This document shows positions 19,444 to 21,660 of a stretch of DNA of 64,000 nt, piece after piece (the stretch's first letter is position 1; every line of letters starts with the position of its first letter). A program made the translations under genes and the position numbers. This DNA is from a virus. The stretch lies in the IMG/VR virus record IMGVR_UViG_3300037309_000059, positions 1-64,000 of that record. One strand, written 5' to 3'. The notes beneath the pieces were generated by a model. That model was not told the origin of the DNA, did no database searches, and was given only the letters and a program-made list of their open reading frames with translations.

Positions 19444-20154
19444 ATGAAGTTGAACACCAAGGTCGCCGCTCCGGCGATCCGTACCCACGAGGGTGCGCCG
19501 GCTCACCCGGCCAGCCTCGATCCGGTCAACCAGCTCCGCCGGTCGGTGCTCTCGTGCCTCCTATGGGAGTCCGAGTTCTACGAGGACGGCCAGGAGATCG
19601 CGGCCCGGATTGCCGACACCGCCCGCAAGGTGCCCCCGCACGTCGTGGCGGCCCTGGCCCGTGAGGCCCGCGGCCGGTACCACCTGCGGCACGTCCCGCT
19701 CTTGCTCCTCTCGATCCTCGCCGACACCGGCAAGGGCACCACCATGGTGCCGGACGCCATCGGCGACGTGATCCAGCGGGCGGATGAGGTGGCCGAGCTG
19801 CTGGCGGTCCGCGTGAAGGTCACCGGCAAGCCGATCAAGGACTCGATCACCCACGGTATGCGCAAGGGCCTCGCCCGTGCCTTCCGGAAGTTCTCGGCCT
19901 ACCAGCTCGCCAAGTATAACCGGGACGGCGCCTTCAAGCTGCGTGACGCCCTGTTCCTTTCGTTCGCGAAGCCGGACAGCGAGGAGCAGGCCGCGGTCTG
20001 GAAGCAGCTCGTGGACGGCACGCTGCCGGCGCCGGACACCTGGGAGACTCGCCTGTCGGCCTCGGGTCAGACTGGCGTGTCGCGGAAGGAAGCCTGGGAG
20101 GGGGTGATCGACCTTTGGATCAAGGACGATGATGCCAAGCCGTCGACCTCCTGA
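19444..20154 (+). CDS. rsr: Ro60/Rsr orthologue, N-terminal fragment (TROVE domain)
   Basis: TROVE-type sequence is present (RRSVLSCLLWESEFYEDGQ, YHLRHVPLLLL, PDTWETRLSASGQ). GGGAG lies 8 nt before the ATG at 19444. The ORF ends in a short non-homologous tail inside the inserted gene. Confidence 0.75.
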   Translation: MKLNTKVAAPAIRTHEGAPAHPASLDPVNQLRRSVLSCLLWESEFYEDGQEIAARIADTARKVPPHVVAALAREARGRYHLRHVPLLLLSILADTGKGTTMVPDAIGDVIQRADEVAELLAVRVKVTGKPIKDSITHGMRKGLARAFRKFSAYQLAKYNRDGAFKLRDALFLSFAKPDSEEQAAVWKQLVDGTLPAPDTWETRLSASGQTGVSRKEAWEGVIDLWIKDDDAKPSTS

Positions 20155-20968
20155 TATCTCCGAACTCATCGCCCGCTACGCAAGCGGAGTCTCTGCTGCT
20201 GCGCTGGGACGCGAGATCGGGGTATCTGGCGACACCATCCTTGCTTGGTTGCGCAAGGATGGTGTCGCAACCAGGACAAAGTCTGAGGCAGCCCGTCATC
20301 CGGTCAAATCCGCTCTGATTTCAAGGCAGCGGATCGGTCAATCCCCGTGGAATAAGGGTCTCGATAAGAGCGACCCAAGAGTGCTTCGTTACAGTCGCGC
20401 TATCTCGGAAAGGGTAGTGAGCGAAAATACTCGCAGCAAGATTTCTTTGGCGCGGTCAAAAGGCGGCGTCTTCTACGATATCTGCCAGCAGTGCGGGAGG
20501 GAAAAAGGGCACAGCAAGAGAGAGCGATGCGTCTGGTGCGCAGCTAAATGGCGGTCGAAAAACTACCCGAACGCCATGCTGGGGAAAAAGTTGACCGCCA
20601 CGCACAAAATCGCTTTGTCTGCCGCAAATCAGCGTCAAAGCAAAAAGACAAATCCGGAGAAAAAGGTAGAGAAAATTCTCAACTCAATCTTTGGATTGAA
20701 GTGTCCTTTCGTTTATACTGGCTGCGGCGAAAATGCTTTCTGGATAACCATTTCACCACATAGGGTGAGAAGGCCAGATTTCACCGACCGAAATGGTCTT
20801 CGGATTATTGAGGTATTTGGGAGATACTGGCACCCAACCTCAGATGAGGTGAAGGCTATAGACGAGTACCGGAGTGTTGGTTGGAAGTGTCTTGTTGTAT
20901 GGGAGGATGAGATAGAGCAATCCATCAACAGGATTGCCCATTTCTGCAGAGCTACAGAAGGAGTTTGA
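20129..20968 (+). mobile_element. free-standing homing-endonuclease-like gene (HTH, NUMOD3-like repeats and a PD-(D/E)XK/Vsr-like C-terminal domain)
   Basis: The region has visibly lower GC than its flanks. The product has an N-terminal HTH (VSAAALGREIGVSGDTILAWL) and repeated S..TRSKIS / T.THKIALSAAN motifs. Its C-terminus reads RPDFTDRNGLRIIEVFGRYWH ... GWKCLVVWEDE. The gene interrupts the Ro60 coding sequence. Confidence 0.65.
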
Positions 20969-20970
20969 CT

Positions 20971-21660
20971 ATGCAGATCACGAACCACTTTGCGATTTTG
21001 CGGAACCTCCGGAACATCTCGGAGGCGGGAGTCTCGGCCGCGCATATCGCCAAGATCAACGCTGCCCTGCGGCATCCGTCCTGGGCTCATGGCGCCCGGC
21101 GCATCCTGCCGTTCCGCTACGTCGCTGCGGCTCGGGCCGCGCCGATGTTTGAGCCCGCAATCGACGTGGCGATGCAGGCGGCCATCCAGGCGCTGCCGGC
21201 CCTGCCGGGTCGGACCATCGTCCTGGTCGACGTGTCGATCTCGATGGACGCCAAGCTGTCCATCAAGTCCGACCTCCGTCGGGTAGACGCGGCTGCAGCC
21301 CTGGCTGCGATCGTGAACGCAGAAGACCTCCGGGTCTTTTCGTTCAGCAATCATCCGGTCGAGGTGCCGGCGCGTCGGGGTATGGCCGGTGTGGATGCTG
21401 TCATCAAGAGCCAGCACCACAGCGGTACCGACCTCGGCGCGGCCGTGCGGCACGTCAACAAGCTGCCGCACGACCGGCTGATCGTGGTGACGGATGAGCA
21501 GTCGCAGACGCGGGTGCCCGATCCGGTCGCGAAGCGGGCCTACATGGTGAATGTCGCGTCGAACCGGCACGGCATTGGCTATGGTCGGTGGACCCACATC
21601 GACGGGTTCAGCGAGTCGGTCCTTCGGTTCATCGCCGAGGTCGAGCGTGACGTCGGCTGA
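20971..21660 (+). CDS. rsr: Ro60/Rsr orthologue, C-terminal fragment (end of TROVE plus vWA/MIDAS)
   Basis: The product has AILRNLRNISEAGV followed by the vWA motif VLVDVSISM ... VVTDEQS. It has its own GAAGGAG Shine-Dalgarno 7 nt before the ATG at 20971, and it is in the same frame as the N-terminal fragment. Confidence 0.75.
   Translation: MQITNHFAILRNLRNISEAGVSAAHIAKINAALRHPSWAHGARRILPFRYVAAARAAPMFEPAIDVAMQAAIQALPALPGRTIVLVDVSISMDAKLSIKSDLRRVDAAAALAAIVNAEDLRVFSFSNHPVEVPARRGMAGVDAVIKSQHHSGTDLGAAVRHVNKLPHDRLIVVTDEQSQTRVPDPVAKRAYMVNVASNRHGIGYGRWTHIDGFSESVLRFIAEVERDVG

What the first reader, a model, noticed from the sequence alone, without database searches (positions are those of the whole stretch)
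19444..21660. Ro60 gene split into two separately translatable halves by a low-GC homing-endonuclease-like gene
The Ro60 reading frame stops at 20154 after a short non-homologous tail (IKDDDAKPSTS). It resumes in the same frame at 20971 (MQITNHFAILRNLRNI) with its own GAAGGAG Shine-Dalgarno sequence. The 840-nt ORF between them (20129..20968) is in another frame, is visibly AT-richer than everything around it, and encodes three recognisable parts. These are an HTH, NUMOD3-like repeats and a PD-(D/E)XK/Vsr-like C-terminal domain. The ORF occupies essentially the whole insertion, so there is no room for a group I intron core. It also lacks intein junction motifs. This resembles the free-standing homing-endonuclease insertions that split genes in T4-like phages, such as the split ribonucleotide reductase genes. 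Such an insertion in a Ro60 gene would be new. It raises the question of whether the two Ro halves reassemble into the ring-shaped protein.
Basis: partly seen in the sequence, partly recalled or inferred. Interest (0 to 1): 0.8.

Follow-up and report, generated by a model that had tools for sequence, protein, structure and literature searches.

The report
Phage Ro60 gene split by endonuclease
In this temperate phage, a mobile homing-endonuclease gene cuts the gene for the ring-shaped RNA-binding protein Ro60 into two separately translated halves; the same arrangement recurs in many uncultured phages and is a new, well-documented example of a known kind of selfish-DNA gene splitting.

Summary
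ORF 19444-20154 is the N-terminal part of a phage Ro60 (TROVE) protein. ORF 20971-21660, in the same frame and with its own GAAGGAG Shine-Dalgarno, is the rest of the HEAT ring plus the vWA domain. ORF 20129-20968 lies between them in another frame and is AT-richer (GC 0.51 against 0.66-0.68). It encodes an HTH/NUMOD3/zinc-ribbon DNA-binding region fused to a Vsr-like nuclease of the EDxHD homing-endonuclease family; its best PDB match by sequence profile and by fold is I-Bth0305I. No intron or intein is present.

The same three-ORF arrangement, broken at the same codon position, occurs in 10 independent loci whose genomic GC runs from about 0.35 to 0.68. One closely related pair (L021 occupied, L023 empty at this site) shows that the endonuclease arrives with about 80 nt and about 110 nt of foreign Ro60 flank. 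That is the signature of intron-less homing with co-conversion. A second, HNH-type endonuclease occupies another Ro60 site in L015 and L023.

The fused halves model as a complete Ro60 ring, and four Y-RNA-like genes lie just upstream.

Verdict: real, and a new member of a known kind (free-standing endonuclease "genes in pieces").

The parts
18927..18994 (+). Y-RNA-like module 1 (short stem-loop, no tRNA-like arm)
   Evidence: It shares the repeated 5' GRYGATGATGKAG and 3' CGYTYGTTTCYCGBC motifs, which pair as a closing stem. There is no Rfam hit of its own, so the assignment is an inference from the repeat family.
19039..19175 (+). Y-RNA-like module 2 with tRNA-like T and D arms (YrlA-like)
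   Evidence: Rfam YrlA RF02553 matches 19051-19165 over the full model at 32.3 bits, E 1.9e-4. This is below the gathering score of 69. It belongs to repeat families D1/D2.
19186..19256 (+). Y-RNA-like module 3 (short stem-loop)
   Evidence: It belongs to repeat families D1/D2. The fold has the closing stem, z = -1.7. The assignment is an inference.
19266..19400 (+). Y-RNA-like module 4 with tRNA-like T and D arms (YrlA-like)
   Evidence: Rfam YrlA matches 19265-19405 over the full model at 36.4 bits, E 1.3e-5, below the gathering score. The fold has z = -2.15. YrlA-like hits also lie upstream of Ro60 in L001, L002, L004, L015 and L016.
19444..20154 (+). Ro60 N-half (HEAT-repeat/TROVE part 1). 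Alternative starts at 19435 (GTG) and 19438 (ATG).
   Evidence: It matches phrog_850 positions 9-200 at E 1.7e-11 and aligns with residues 1 to about 216 of intact phage Ro60 proteins. Among the best 120 hits, 7 other split N-half clusters end at the same motif.
20047..21096 (+). Putative mobile cassette: the endonuclease gene plus co-converted Ro60 flanks. These run from just after 'PDTWE' to just before 'RRILPFRY'.
   Evidence: The boundaries are set by analogy, not shown for the window itself. In the L021/L023 pair, exactly this segment is unalignable while the rest is 91-94% identical. The window carries the same flank signatures: '..KEAWEGVIDLWI..' and 'MQITNHFAILRNLRNI..ALRHPSWAHGA'.
20129..20968 (+). 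Free-standing homing-endonuclease gene (279 aa, EDxHD/Vsr-like family). Alternative start at ATG 20132.
   Evidence: There are 13 homologues in 5.8 billion proteins. Five of the six whose contigs were examined split a Ro60 gene at this site; P0008 (L011) does not obviously split a gene. The family profile's best PDB hit is 3r3p (I-Bth0305I) at E 1e-4. The top Foldseek hit is 3r3p_B, followed by DUF559 (3hrl) and Vsr (1cw0). The AF2 model has pLDDT 80.
20156..20257 (+). Endonuclease N-terminal helix-turn-helix (residues 10-43)
   Evidence: The AF2 model has helices 10-18, 23-30 and 34-43 at pLDDT about 90. Pfam HTH hits are weak: CENP-B_N E 0.039 and HTH_38 E 0.14.
20483..20539 (+). CxxC...CxxC putative zinc ribbon (C119, C122, C134, C137), set between NUMOD3-like repeats
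   Evidence: This is read directly from the sequence and the alignment. It is conserved in the 'type 1' homologues (window, P0002-P0006) and absent from 'type 2' (P0007-P0011).
20645..20950 (+). Vsr-like/EDxHD nuclease domain (residues about 173-274)
   Evidence: Invariant residues are P176 E177, P216 D217 F218, and I227 E228 V229 F230 G231 .. Y233 W234 H235. D217 corresponds to Vsr D51. E228 is the family-specific Glu at the position of Vsr F62. H235 corresponds to Vsr H69 and I-Bth0305I H213 (alignments; PMC2677866 and PMC3239194).
20957..20963 (+). Shine-Dalgarno GAAGGAG for the C-half, embedded in the endonuclease 3' coding end
   Evidence: Read directly from the sequence, 7 nt before ATG 20971. 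GGAG-like purine runs sit 6-9 nt before the C-half ATG in most of the other split loci (C-side sequences).
20971..21660 (+). Ro60 C-half: the last HEAT repeats, the vWA domain and the terminal helix
   Evidence: It matches phrog_850 positions 210-460 at E 4.9e-30. Pfam hits to TROVE and vWA_Ro60 are weak. It is 65% identical to the intact Ro60 of Xanthomonas phage 10KY502B. Among the best 120 hits, 15 distinct clusters start at the same place.
21229..21243 (+). vWA MIDAS motif DxSxS (D87-V-S89-I-S91 of the C-half)
   Evidence: Read directly from the sequence. It aligns with DVSGS in intact homologues.

Best explanation
[quoted passage not shown] It sits in a surface hairpin between two HEAT-repeat helices, about five codons upstream of the most conserved Ro60 motif (LRNLRN).

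**How it spreads (inferred).** The endonuclease is made from an ATG that lies inside the last codons of the N-half. In a mixed infection it cuts endonuclease-free Ro60 alleles near that conserved sequence. Repair from the endonuclease-carrying genome then copies in the endonuclease gene together with about 80 nt of upstream and about 110 nt of downstream donor Ro60 sequence. This is intron-less homing with co-conversion. The diverged flanks make the carrier allele a non-target.

**Why the host gene survives (inferred).** There is no intron or intein to repair the host gene. Ro60 is instead made as two polypeptides: the N-half ends in the overlap, and the C-half starts at its own SD and ATG placed 2 nt after the endonuclease stop. 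The two pieces re-associate non-covalently into the normal HEAT-ring-plus-vWA particle. That particle works with the four Y-RNA-like RNAs encoded immediately upstream.

**What is shown.**
- the anatomy of the locus;
- the family assignments;
- the recurrence of the arrangement in other assemblies;
- the co-conversion signature in a related pair;
- purifying selection on the Ro60 coding sequence.

**What is inferred.**
- cleavage activity and its target;
- separate translation of the halves;
- re-assembly and function of the two halves.
For: **Anatomy and frames.**

**The halves are consecutive parts of one Ro60.**
- phrog_850 positions 9-200 (N) and 210-460 (C).
- Alignment with intact phage Ro60 proteins.
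- AF2 model of the fused halves: pLDDT 88.7, pTM 0.77.
- That model matches 9kop, 9l5y, 2nvo, 1yvp and 9nen over the full length, TM 0.62-0.69, probability 1.00.

**Endonuclease family.**
- The profile's best PDB hit is I-Bth0305I (3r3p) at E 1e-4; Vsr follows at about 9e-4.
- Across the 13 family members, NUMOD3 is found in 10, Vsr in 7 and DUF559 in 4.
- The top Foldseek hit is 3r3p_B, TMt 0.59.
- The residues equivalent to Vsr D51 and H69, and the family-specific Glu, are invariant.

**No intron.** Rfam E-value scans were negative.

**Recurrence.**
- The same N/endonuclease/C arrangement occurs in window, L003, L004, L008, L009, L013, L016, L019, L020 and L021.
- The endonuclease start lies -4 to +22 nt after the conserved Trp codon, and its stop lies 2-14 nt before the conserved Asn-His codons.
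- Among the best 120 hits, 15 C-half and 7 further N-half clusters begin or end at this same point.

**Mobility.**
- L021 (occupied) and L023 (canonical at this site) are 91-94% identical in DNA, except for L021 1165-2058 against L023 1698-1850. That segment is the endonuclease plus both flanks.
- Outside the cassette, the L021 C-half is 95% identical to a canonical allele but at most 71% to any other split allele. The window's own C-half is 0.73 to its best canonical allele and 0.71 to its best split allele.
- The L019 endonuclease (GC3 0.19 in a 0.74-0.81 context) is of the L009 type, while its Ro60 halves are closest to L004, L016 and the window.

**Selection.**
- Omega is 0.06-0.135 at unsaturated dS (0.13-0.37) between L021 and L023.
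- pN < pS for N, endonuclease and C in all six locus pairs compared.
- The MIDAS motif is intact.

**RNP context.** YrlA-like hits lie upstream of Ro60 here and in five other loci.

**Precedents.** Split products of Aeh1 nrdA and phage 25 gene 43 re-assemble and are active (PMC2988022).
Against: - **No experimental data exist.** Cleavage activity, the target site, separate translation and association of the halves are all untested.
- **The nuclease motif is incomplete by alignment.** The last acidic residue of the EDxHD motif cannot be placed unambiguously (D239/E240 or D245).
- **NUMOD3 is only E 0.25 in the window's own protein.**
- **The co-conversion evidence comes from another phage pair, not from the window.** The window's closest endonuclease-free allele is only about 73% identical in the region compared.
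- **The window's flanks have host-like GC3 while the endonuclease does not**. That is not what simple one-step acquisition predicts.
- **The fused-chain AF2 model cannot show that two separate chains associate.**
- **The omega estimate has a timing caveat.** It may largely reflect time before the insertions.
- **Endonuclease copies are only 35-57% identical to one another.** No very recent transfer involving the window is documented.
Confidence: 0.8

Rival explanations
1. The insert is a group I (or II) intron carrying its endonuclease ORF. Splicing restores a contiguous Ro60 mRNA, so the protein is not really split.
For: The closest characterised relative, I-Bth0305I, is intron-encoded (PMC3239194). 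The N and C ORFs are in the same frame.
Against: - Rfam scans found no intron family at E <= 10 in 18700-21800, and none at E <= 0.01 in five related loci that carry an endonuclease in Ro60.
- The ORF overlaps both Ro60 ORFs, so no non-coding nucleotides are left for an intron core.
- All 10 loci keep a stop for the N-half, and most show a GGAG-like run 6-9 nt before the C-half ATG.
- A contiguous derivative allele (L015) joins the halves through 15 extra codons rather than at a precise splice junction.
Confidence: 0.03
2. This is a 'fractured gene' with a split intein. The two halves are ligated by protein trans-splicing.
For: Vsr-like endonucleases were first found between split-intein halves in phage metagenomes (PMC2677866).
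Against: - Pfam found no Hint or intein domain.
- Beyond Ro60 homology, the N-half has only 3-15 residues and the C-half only 3-4. That is far too short for intein halves.
- There is no conserved Cys/Ser/Thr nucleophile at the junctions.
- Dassa et al. themselves describe an intein-less SbcD-like case.
Confidence: 0.02
3. The endonuclease insertion simply inactivated Ro60. The two ORFs are decaying remnants with no function, or only one of them is still used.
For: Ro60 is an accessory gene and is absent from most phages. No expression or assembly data exist.
Against: - Both halves remain open and conserved in 10 loci whose endonucleases have diverged to 35-57% identity.
- The cassette-borne flanks evolve only in the split state, yet they keep the Ro60 motifs (W-E-x-x-I-D-x-W-I; N-H-x-A-I-x-R-N-L-R-N).
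- The MIDAS motif is intact.
- pN < pS throughout, and omega is 0.06-0.135.
- Y-RNA-like genes are retained upstream.
- The SD and ATG of the C-half are conserved.
Confidence: 0.08
4. The endonuclease is no longer mobile or active in this phage. It is a vertically inherited, domesticated ORF, for example a translational coupler between the halves or a DNA-binding regulator.
For: - Endonuclease copies differ by about as much as the host halves do.
- The tight ORF overlaps suggest translational coupling.
- The window's flanks are compositionally ameliorated.
Against: - The catalytic residues are invariant in all 13 homologues.
- The L021/L023 pair shows presence and absence with replaced flanks in about 92%-identical genomes.
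- Split alleles are not monophyletic outside the cassette.
- The L019 endonuclease is a clear compositional and phylogenetic misfit to its host gene.
Confidence: 0.07

Closest known systems
Intein-less SbcD-like gene fractured by a Vsr-like endonuclease ORF (GOS Lake Gatun locus; Dassa et al. 2009, PMC2677866)
   Same: - Same endonuclease family.
- Same architecture: N ORF, overlapping free-standing endonuclease ORF, then C ORF in the original order.
- No intein and no intron.
- Short extra residues at both sides of the fracture point.
   Different: - The host gene is an RNA-binding Ro60 ring, not a DNA-repair enzyme.
- The arrangement is documented here in 10 loci with a defined co-conversion tract.
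- A second endonuclease site lies in the same gene.
- A re-fused derivative allele exists.
Aeromonas phage Aeh1 nrdA split by mobE ('genes in pieces'). Also T4 gene 39/60 with mobA, and phage 25 gene 43 with a seg-like gene (PMC2988022).
   Same: A free-standing endonuclease is inserted inside a conserved coding region. The host protein is made as two polypeptides, which re-assemble into an active enzyme (shown for NrdA and gp43).
   Different: - Those endonucleases are HNH or GIY-YIG; here it is EDxHD/Vsr-like.
- Those are single-phage oddities; here the split is widespread.
- Re-assembly is not yet shown for Ro60.
I-Bth0305I, prototype of the EDxHD family (PDB 3R3P; PMC3239194)
   Same: - Best PDB match by sequence profile and by fold.
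- N-terminal NUMOD/HTH DNA-binding region followed by a C-terminal Vsr-like nuclease.
- Conserved equivalents of Vsr D51 and H69.
   Different: - I-Bth0305I sits in a group I intron of recA; this one is free-standing with no intron.
- About 20% identity in the nuclease domain.
- This protein has NUMOD3 rather than NUMOD2 motifs and an extra CxxC..CxxC element.
Hef, the free-standing Vsr-like endonuclease of T4-related phage U5 (Sandegren et al. 2005, cited in PMC2988022 and PMC3239194)
   Same: It is a free-standing member of the same endonuclease family and spreads by intron-less homing in phages.
   Different: Hef lies between genes (the nrdA/nrdB region) and does not split its host gene.
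phiRo60 of Thermus phage phiLo with Yrl1/Yrl2 (PDB 9KOP/9L5Y; PMC12135203), and bacterial Rsr with YrlA
   Same: - Closest solved structure to the fused halves (TM 0.68).
- A phage-encoded Ro60 with Y-RNA-like genes directly upstream.
   Different: phiRo60 is a single 502-aa chain. Here the HEAT-repeat domain is broken at the position corresponding to about residues 229-245 of the 9l5y chain, well inside the ring rather than at the HEAT/vWA boundary.

Membership tests
EDxHD (Vsr-like) homing endonucleases | C-terminal nuclease domain with the Vsr / I-Bth0305I fold | tested here: met
   Profile of 13 homologues against PDB: 3r3p E 1e-4; Vsr 1odg, 1cw0 and 1vsr about 9e-4. AF2 model with pLDDT 85-96 over residues 170-270. 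Foldseek gives 3r3p_B first (probability 1.0, TMt 0.59), then 3hrl and 1cw0.
EDxHD (Vsr-like) homing endonucleases | Conserved catalytic residues: the Vsr Asp51 equivalent, the family-specific Glu at the Vsr Phe62 position, and the Vsr His69 equivalent | tested here: met
   D217 (in PDF), E228 (in IEV) and H235 (in YWH) are invariant in all 13 sequences. Their correspondence to Vsr follows the HMMER alignments and the descriptions in PMC2677866 and PMC3239194.
EDxHD (Vsr-like) homing endonucleases | Final acidic residue (Vsr Asp97 / I-Bth0305I Asp222) | tested here: inconclusive
   Acidic residues D239, E240 and D245 lie in the expected helix. The sequence alignment puts Vsr D97 opposite A243, so the equivalent residue cannot be assigned.
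EDxHD (Vsr-like) homing endonucleases | N-terminal NUMOD/HTH modular DNA-binding region | tested here: met
   NUMOD3 is found in 10 of 13 family members (best E 1e-11). In the window protein itself it reaches only E 0.25. A three-helix HTH is modelled at pLDDT about 90.
EDxHD (Vsr-like) homing endonucleases | Site-specific cleavage of the endonuclease-free allele, and homing | not testable with these tools
   Only comparative support is available. The L021/L023 pair shows occupied and empty sites with replaced flanks, and split alleles are polyphyletic outside the cassette.
Free-standing-endonuclease 'genes in pieces' (intein-less fractured gene) | Two ORFs in the original order that together equal one contiguous homologue, with the endonuclease ORF between them | tested here: met
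Free-standing-endonuclease 'genes in pieces' (intein-less fractured gene) | No self-splicing intron or intein around the endonuclease | tested here: met
   Rfam E-value scans were negative. No Hint or intein Pfam hit. The junction tails are 3-15 residues.
Free-standing-endonuclease 'genes in pieces' (intein-less fractured gene) | The split polypeptides re-assemble into a functional protein | not testable with these tools
   Support is indirect only: conservation, omega 0.06-0.135, and a fused-chain model with a two-stranded hairpin (229-231 / 240-242) formed by the two new termini.
Ro60 / TROVE-vWA RNA-binding proteins | HEAT-repeat toroid closed by a vWA domain | tested here: met
   The fused model matches 9kop, 9l5y, 2nvo, 1yvp, 2i91 and 9nen at TM 0.62-0.69, probability 1.00. 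Sequence E is 4e-24 from the intact relative L001 to 9l5y.
Ro60 / TROVE-vWA RNA-binding proteins | MIDAS motif (DxSxS) in the vWA domain | tested here: met
   D-V-S-I-S at 21229-21243, read from the sequence.
Ro60 / TROVE-vWA RNA-binding proteins | Partner Y RNA encoded nearby | tested here: inconclusive
   Two full-length YrlA matches (E 1.3e-5 and 1.9e-4) fall below Rfam's gathering score (36 and 32 bits against 69). There are also two shorter modules sharing the same closing-stem motifs. Similar sub-threshold hits lie upstream of Ro60 in five other loci.
Group I intron-encoded endonuclease | Intron catalytic core (P3-P8) flanking or embedding the ORF | tested here: not met
   No Intron_gpI hit at E <= 10. 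No non-coding sequence remains between the three ORFs.
Split-intein fractured gene | Intein N and C blocks at the fracture point | tested here: not met
   No Hint or intein Pfam domain. The extensions are too short and carry no conserved nucleophile.

The most novel reading that the evidence does not exclude
The two-piece state may itself be adaptive rather than merely tolerated.

- The cassette carries its own versions of the Ro60 segments on either side of the break. On the upstream side this is the helix ending W-E-x-x-I-D-x-W-I. On the downstream side it is the N-H-x-A-I-x-R-N-L-R-N helix plus an extended 'ALxxxxWxxGA' loop.
- Each homing event would therefore swap part of the RNA-binding ring.
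- It would also create a ring that is closed by a non-covalent beta-hairpin. Such a ring could open to load structured or circular RNAs.
- The endonuclease ORF would double as a translational coupler that sets the stoichiometry of the halves.
Probability: 0.1. Interest if true: 0.75.

Novelty: new member of a known kind. Interest (0 to 1): 0.5.

Why it matters
**For mobile-DNA biology.** This is an unusually well-replicated natural example of a free-standing endonuclease fracturing a gene. It offers:
- 10 independent loci;
- a closely related occupied/empty pair that delimits the co-conversion tract;
- two different endonuclease families at two sites in one gene;
- a re-fused derivative allele.

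It also extends the targets of EDxHD endonucleases from DNA-metabolism genes to an RNA-quality-control gene.

**For Ro60 biology.** It predicts that the Ro60 toroid can be assembled from two polypeptides broken inside the HEAT ring. That gives a ready-made split-protein system, with cognate Y-like RNAs, for studying ring assembly and RNA loading.

**For annotation.** These halves are currently called as unrelated 'hypothetical', 'VWA' or 'TROVE' proteins.

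Tried and rejected
- **Phage DNA search.** Megablast of 18800-22400 against 50,697 phage records gave no match.
- **Endonuclease against phage records.** tblastn of the endonuclease gave no match. 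This endonuclease lineage is absent from isolated phages in that collection.
- **IMG/VR scan.** A scan with the endonuclease profile matched 27 patterns, but none was confirmed.
- **Genome scan.** It yielded one further locus only (L020).
- **'Decaying endonuclease' idea, withdrawn.** Gene calls in L017 (66 + 108 aa) differed from L016 (219 aa), which looked like decay. The DNA is identical over 3601-5800, so this is a gene-calling difference.
- **NJ tree of C-halves.** It suggested a basal split grade. I rejected it as evidence because the region included the co-converted 35-40 residues. Redoing the comparison downstream of 'LPFRY' removed the signal. That second comparison is itself biased by the larger number of canonical sequences, so I rely mainly on the P0019/P0119 pair.
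- **Deep pairwise dN/dS.** These comparisons are saturated at synonymous sites and serve only as a qualitative check.
- **Promoter and terminator scan.** Nothing exceeded chance on the + strand, so the scan is uninformative about internal promoters or terminators. It is no evidence for an operon.
- **Intron, intein and translational-bypass readings.** Considered and rejected; see the rival explanations.

Full report
**1. The observation**

Listing ORFs and reading the sequence confirms three consecutive + strand ORFs.
- **N ORF:** 19435/19438/19444 to 20154.
- **Middle ORF:** 20129-20968, 279 aa, in another frame. It overlaps the first ORF by 26 nt.
- **C ORF:** 20971-21660, in the frame of the first ORF. 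It is preceded by GAAGGAG at 20957-20963, and the stop of the middle ORF (20966-20968) lies 2 nt before its ATG.

The middle ORF is compositionally distinct. GC is 0.514 against 0.684 and 0.658, and GC3 is 0.55 against 0.92 and 0.83.

The window itself is a temperate tailed phage. It carries a major-head/protease fusion, a tape-measure protein, tail fibres, a primase-helicase, and an integrase next to tRNA-Gly.

**2. The flanking ORFs are two halves of one Ro60**

Pfam alone is weak: there is nothing for the N-half, and only sub-threshold TROVE and vWA_Ro60 hits for the C-half. Stronger evidence comes from four other sources.
- The phage family phrog_850 ('RNA-binding protein') matches the N-half over profile positions 9-200 (E 1.7e-11). 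It matches the C-half over 210-460 (E 4.9e-30).
- tblastn finds intact Ro60-like genes in Xanthomonas, Caulobacter, Brevundimonas and other phages, up to 65% identical to the C-half. Both halves align end to end with two of them.
- An AlphaFold2 model of the concatenated halves is confident (pLDDT 88.7, pTM 0.77).
- That model matches every solved Ro60 over its full length. These include Thermus phage phiRo60 (9kop/9l5y, TM 0.68), Deinococcus Rsr (2nvo), Xenopus Ro60 (1yvp) and human Ro60 (9nen).

The break lies inside the HEAT-repeat ring, not at the HEAT/vWA boundary. phiRo60 has HEAT at 25-306 plus 478-492 and vWA at 316-477 (PMC12135203). The break maps to about chain residues 229-245.

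In the model the new C-terminus of the N-half (I-K-D, 229-231) and the new N-terminus of the C-half (M-Q-I, 240-242) form a two-stranded hairpin. This hairpin lies between helices 217-228 and 245-250. It is a prediction made on a fused chain, not evidence of association.

The vWA MIDAS motif (DVSIS) is intact.

**3. The inserted ORF is an EDxHD/Vsr-like homing endonuclease**

Only 13 relatives exist among 5.8 billion proteins. Their alignment has invariant P-E, P-D-F and I-E-V-F-G-x-Y-W-H blocks.
- **Sequence profile:** the best PDB hit is the catalytic domain of I-Bth0305I (3r3p, E 1e-4), followed by Vsr (about 9e-4).
- **Pfam:** NUMOD3 is found in 10 of the 13 members, Vsr in 7 and DUF559 in 4.
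- **Fold:** an AF2 model (pLDDT 80) gives 3r3p_B as the top Foldseek hit, then DUF559 (3hrl) and Vsr (1cw0).
- **Catalytic residues:** D217, E228 and H235 correspond to Vsr Asp51, the family-specific Glu at Vsr Phe62, and Vsr His69. The last acidic residue of the motif cannot be placed with confidence.
- **N-terminal region:** it has a confidently modelled HTH (residues 10-43), NUMOD3-like repeats and a CxxC..CxxC element.

**4. No intron, no intein**

Rfam E-value scans of 18700-21800 (E <= 10) found no intron. Scans of seven related loci (E <= 0.01) also found none; five of these carry an endonuclease in Ro60.

The endonuclease ORF overlaps or abuts both Ro60 ORFs, so no non-coding sequence is left. 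No Hint domain is found. The junction extensions are 3-15 residues and carry no conserved nucleophile.

**5. The arrangement recurs**

I looked up the contigs of the endonuclease homologues and of the C-half homologues. The same N/endonuclease/C architecture appears in L003, L004, L008, L009, L013, L016, L019, L020 and L021, besides the window. Genomic GC of these loci runs from about 0.35 to 0.68.
- Every N-half ends ...W-E-x-x-I-D-x-W-(I/V)-x-(D/E)...
- Every C-half starts M-x-(I/V)-x-N-H-x-A-(I/L)-x-R-N-L-R-N-I.
- The endonuclease start lies -4 to +22 nt after the Trp codon, and its stop lies 2-14 nt before the Asn-His codons.
- A GGAG-like run sits 6-9 nt before the C-half ATG in most of these loci.
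- Among the best 120 C-half hits, 15 distinct clusters start at this point. Among the best 120 N-half hits, 7 other clusters end there and 76 are canonical contiguous genes.

**6. Evidence that the cassette moves**

- **(a) An occupied/empty pair.**
  - L021 (occupied) and L023 (canonical sequence at this site) are 91-94% identical in DNA.
  - The exception is L021 1165-2058, which is unalignable with L023 1698-1850.
  - The replaced segment is the endonuclease plus about 82 nt of 5' flank and about 108 nt of 3' flank. It runs from just after 'PDTWE' to just before 'KRVLPFRY'.
  - This is the pattern expected from double-strand-break repair with co-conversion. It also explains why all split alleles share the flank signatures.
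- **(b) Split alleles are not a clade of the host gene.**
  - Downstream of 'LPFRY', the L021 C-half is 95% identical to a canonical allele but at most 71% to any other split allele.
  - The window's C-half is 0.73 to its best canonical allele and 0.71 to its best split allele.
- **(c) A mismatched endonuclease.** The L019 endonuclease (GC3 0.19 in a 0.74-0.81 context) is of the zinc-ribbon-less 'type 2' also seen in L009 and L021. Its Ro60 halves are closest to 'type 1' carriers.
- **(d) A re-fused allele.** L015/P0022 carries the flank signatures but no endonuclease at this site. The halves are joined in frame by 15 codons (DLWI-READNTGPADGLKIS-NHF). I read this as an endonuclease-deletion derivative; that reading is an inference.
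- **(e) A second site.** L015 and L023 each carry a different, HNH/NUMOD3-type ORF at a second Ro60 site. It lies after 'FDEYQLAKW', and the gene resumes near 'AIKLRDVLF'. Ro60 is therefore a repeated endonuclease target in these phages.

**7. Is the split Ro60 functional?**

- Omega between L021 and L023 is 0.07, 0.06 and 0.135 for three segments, at unsaturated dS of 0.13-0.37.
- Deeper comparisons show pN < pS for all three ORFs.
- The flank segments that travel with the endonuclease, and so evolve in the split state, keep the Ro60 motifs.
- Immediately upstream (18927-19400) lie four tandem Y-RNA-like modules with shared closing-stem motifs. Two of them are full-length matches to Rfam YrlA, with tRNA-like T and D arms. 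Both score below the gathering threshold (36.4 and 32.3 bits against 69).
- YrlA-like hits also precede Ro60 in L001, L002, L004, L015 and L016. Thermus phage phiLo likewise has two Yrl RNAs upstream of its Ro60.

Re-assembly of the halves is inferred by analogy with Aeh1 NrdA and phage 25 gp43 (PMC2988022).

**8. Comparison with what is known, and novelty**

- The mechanism class is established. Free-standing endonucleases split nrdA (Aeh1 mobE), T4 gene 39/60 (mobA) and gene 43.
- A Vsr-like endonuclease fracturing an intein-less SbcD-like gene was reported in 2009.
- EDxHD endonucleases are known in group I introns (I-Bth0305I), between split inteins, and free-standing (Hef).
- I found no report of a split Ro60/TROVE gene.

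I therefore class this as a new member of a known kind. It gains added value from the replicated comparative evidence and from the unusual host protein, a toroidal RNA chaperone broken inside its ring.

**9. Open points**

- In the window, the cassette-type flanks have host-like GC3 while the endonuclease does not. Possible causes are replacement of the endonuclease core after the flanks were acquired, or different selection on codon usage.
- No near-identical endonuclease-free allele of the window's own Ro60 was found. The cassette boundaries 20047-21096 are therefore set by analogy.
- Nuclease activity, target site, translation of the halves and their association all remain to be tested.

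Noticed in passing
window 18927-19400 (+): Four tandem Y-RNA-like modules lie directly upstream of the split Ro60 gene. All share 5' GRYGATGATGKAG and 3' CGYTYGTTTCYCGBC closing-stem motifs. Two (19039-19175 and 19266-19400) contain tRNA-like T and D arms and match Rfam YrlA below the gathering score. A tRNA/permuted-tmRNA-like sub-hit at 19267-19354 is part of module 4.
   Followed up: partly
L015 3197-5290 and L023 510-2450: There is a second endonuclease insertion site in Ro60. An HNH/NUMOD3-type ORF (L015 3649 to about 4250; L023 977-1576) splits the gene after '..FDEYQLAKW', and the gene resumes near '..AIKLRDVLF'. These alleles are contiguous at the EDxHD site.
   Followed up: partly
L015 about 4448-4570 (protein P0022): This contiguous Ro60 allele carries the cassette flank signatures but no endonuclease. 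The halves are joined in frame by 15 codons (READNTGPADGLKIS). It looks like an endonuclease-deletion derivative that re-fused the gene.
   Followed up: partly
L020 4579-5412: In a contig binned as a Candidatus Parcubacteria MAG, the same split Ro60 is followed immediately by a GIY-YIG-type endonuclease-like ORF.
   Followed up: no
L011 2-982 and L023 2534-3880: TnpB / IS605 OrfB-like genes lie next to an endonuclease relative that does not obviously split a gene (L011). Another lies directly downstream of Ro60 in L023.
   Followed up: no
window 26590-27813 (-) and 28040-28113 (+): A tyrosine-integrase-like gene (phrog_1) sits beside the only canonical tRNA (Gly-CCC). This suggests a temperate phage with a tRNA-linked attachment site.
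   Followed up: no
window 17996-18796 (+): The gene just upstream of the Y-like RNAs (phrog_7371, unknown function) begins with a DETGSM motif that resembles a vWA MIDAS site. A metallophosphoesterase gene (21835-22392, phrog_547) follows the Ro60 C-half after a 63-codon ORF.
   Followed up: no
window 20047-20128 and 20971-21096 versus 20129-20968; also L003 and L019: The Ro60 flanks that carry the cassette signature have host-like GC3 (0.83-0.92), but the endonuclease ORF does not (0.55). In L019 the contrast is 0.74-0.81 against 0.19. Simple one-step co-conversion does not explain this.
   Followed up: partly
protein P0136 (782-nt contig): This Ro60 N-terminal fragment is 68% identical to the window's N-half. 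It diverges abruptly after '..NRDKAIKL', at or near the second endonuclease site. It may be a further kind of interruption.
   Followed up: no
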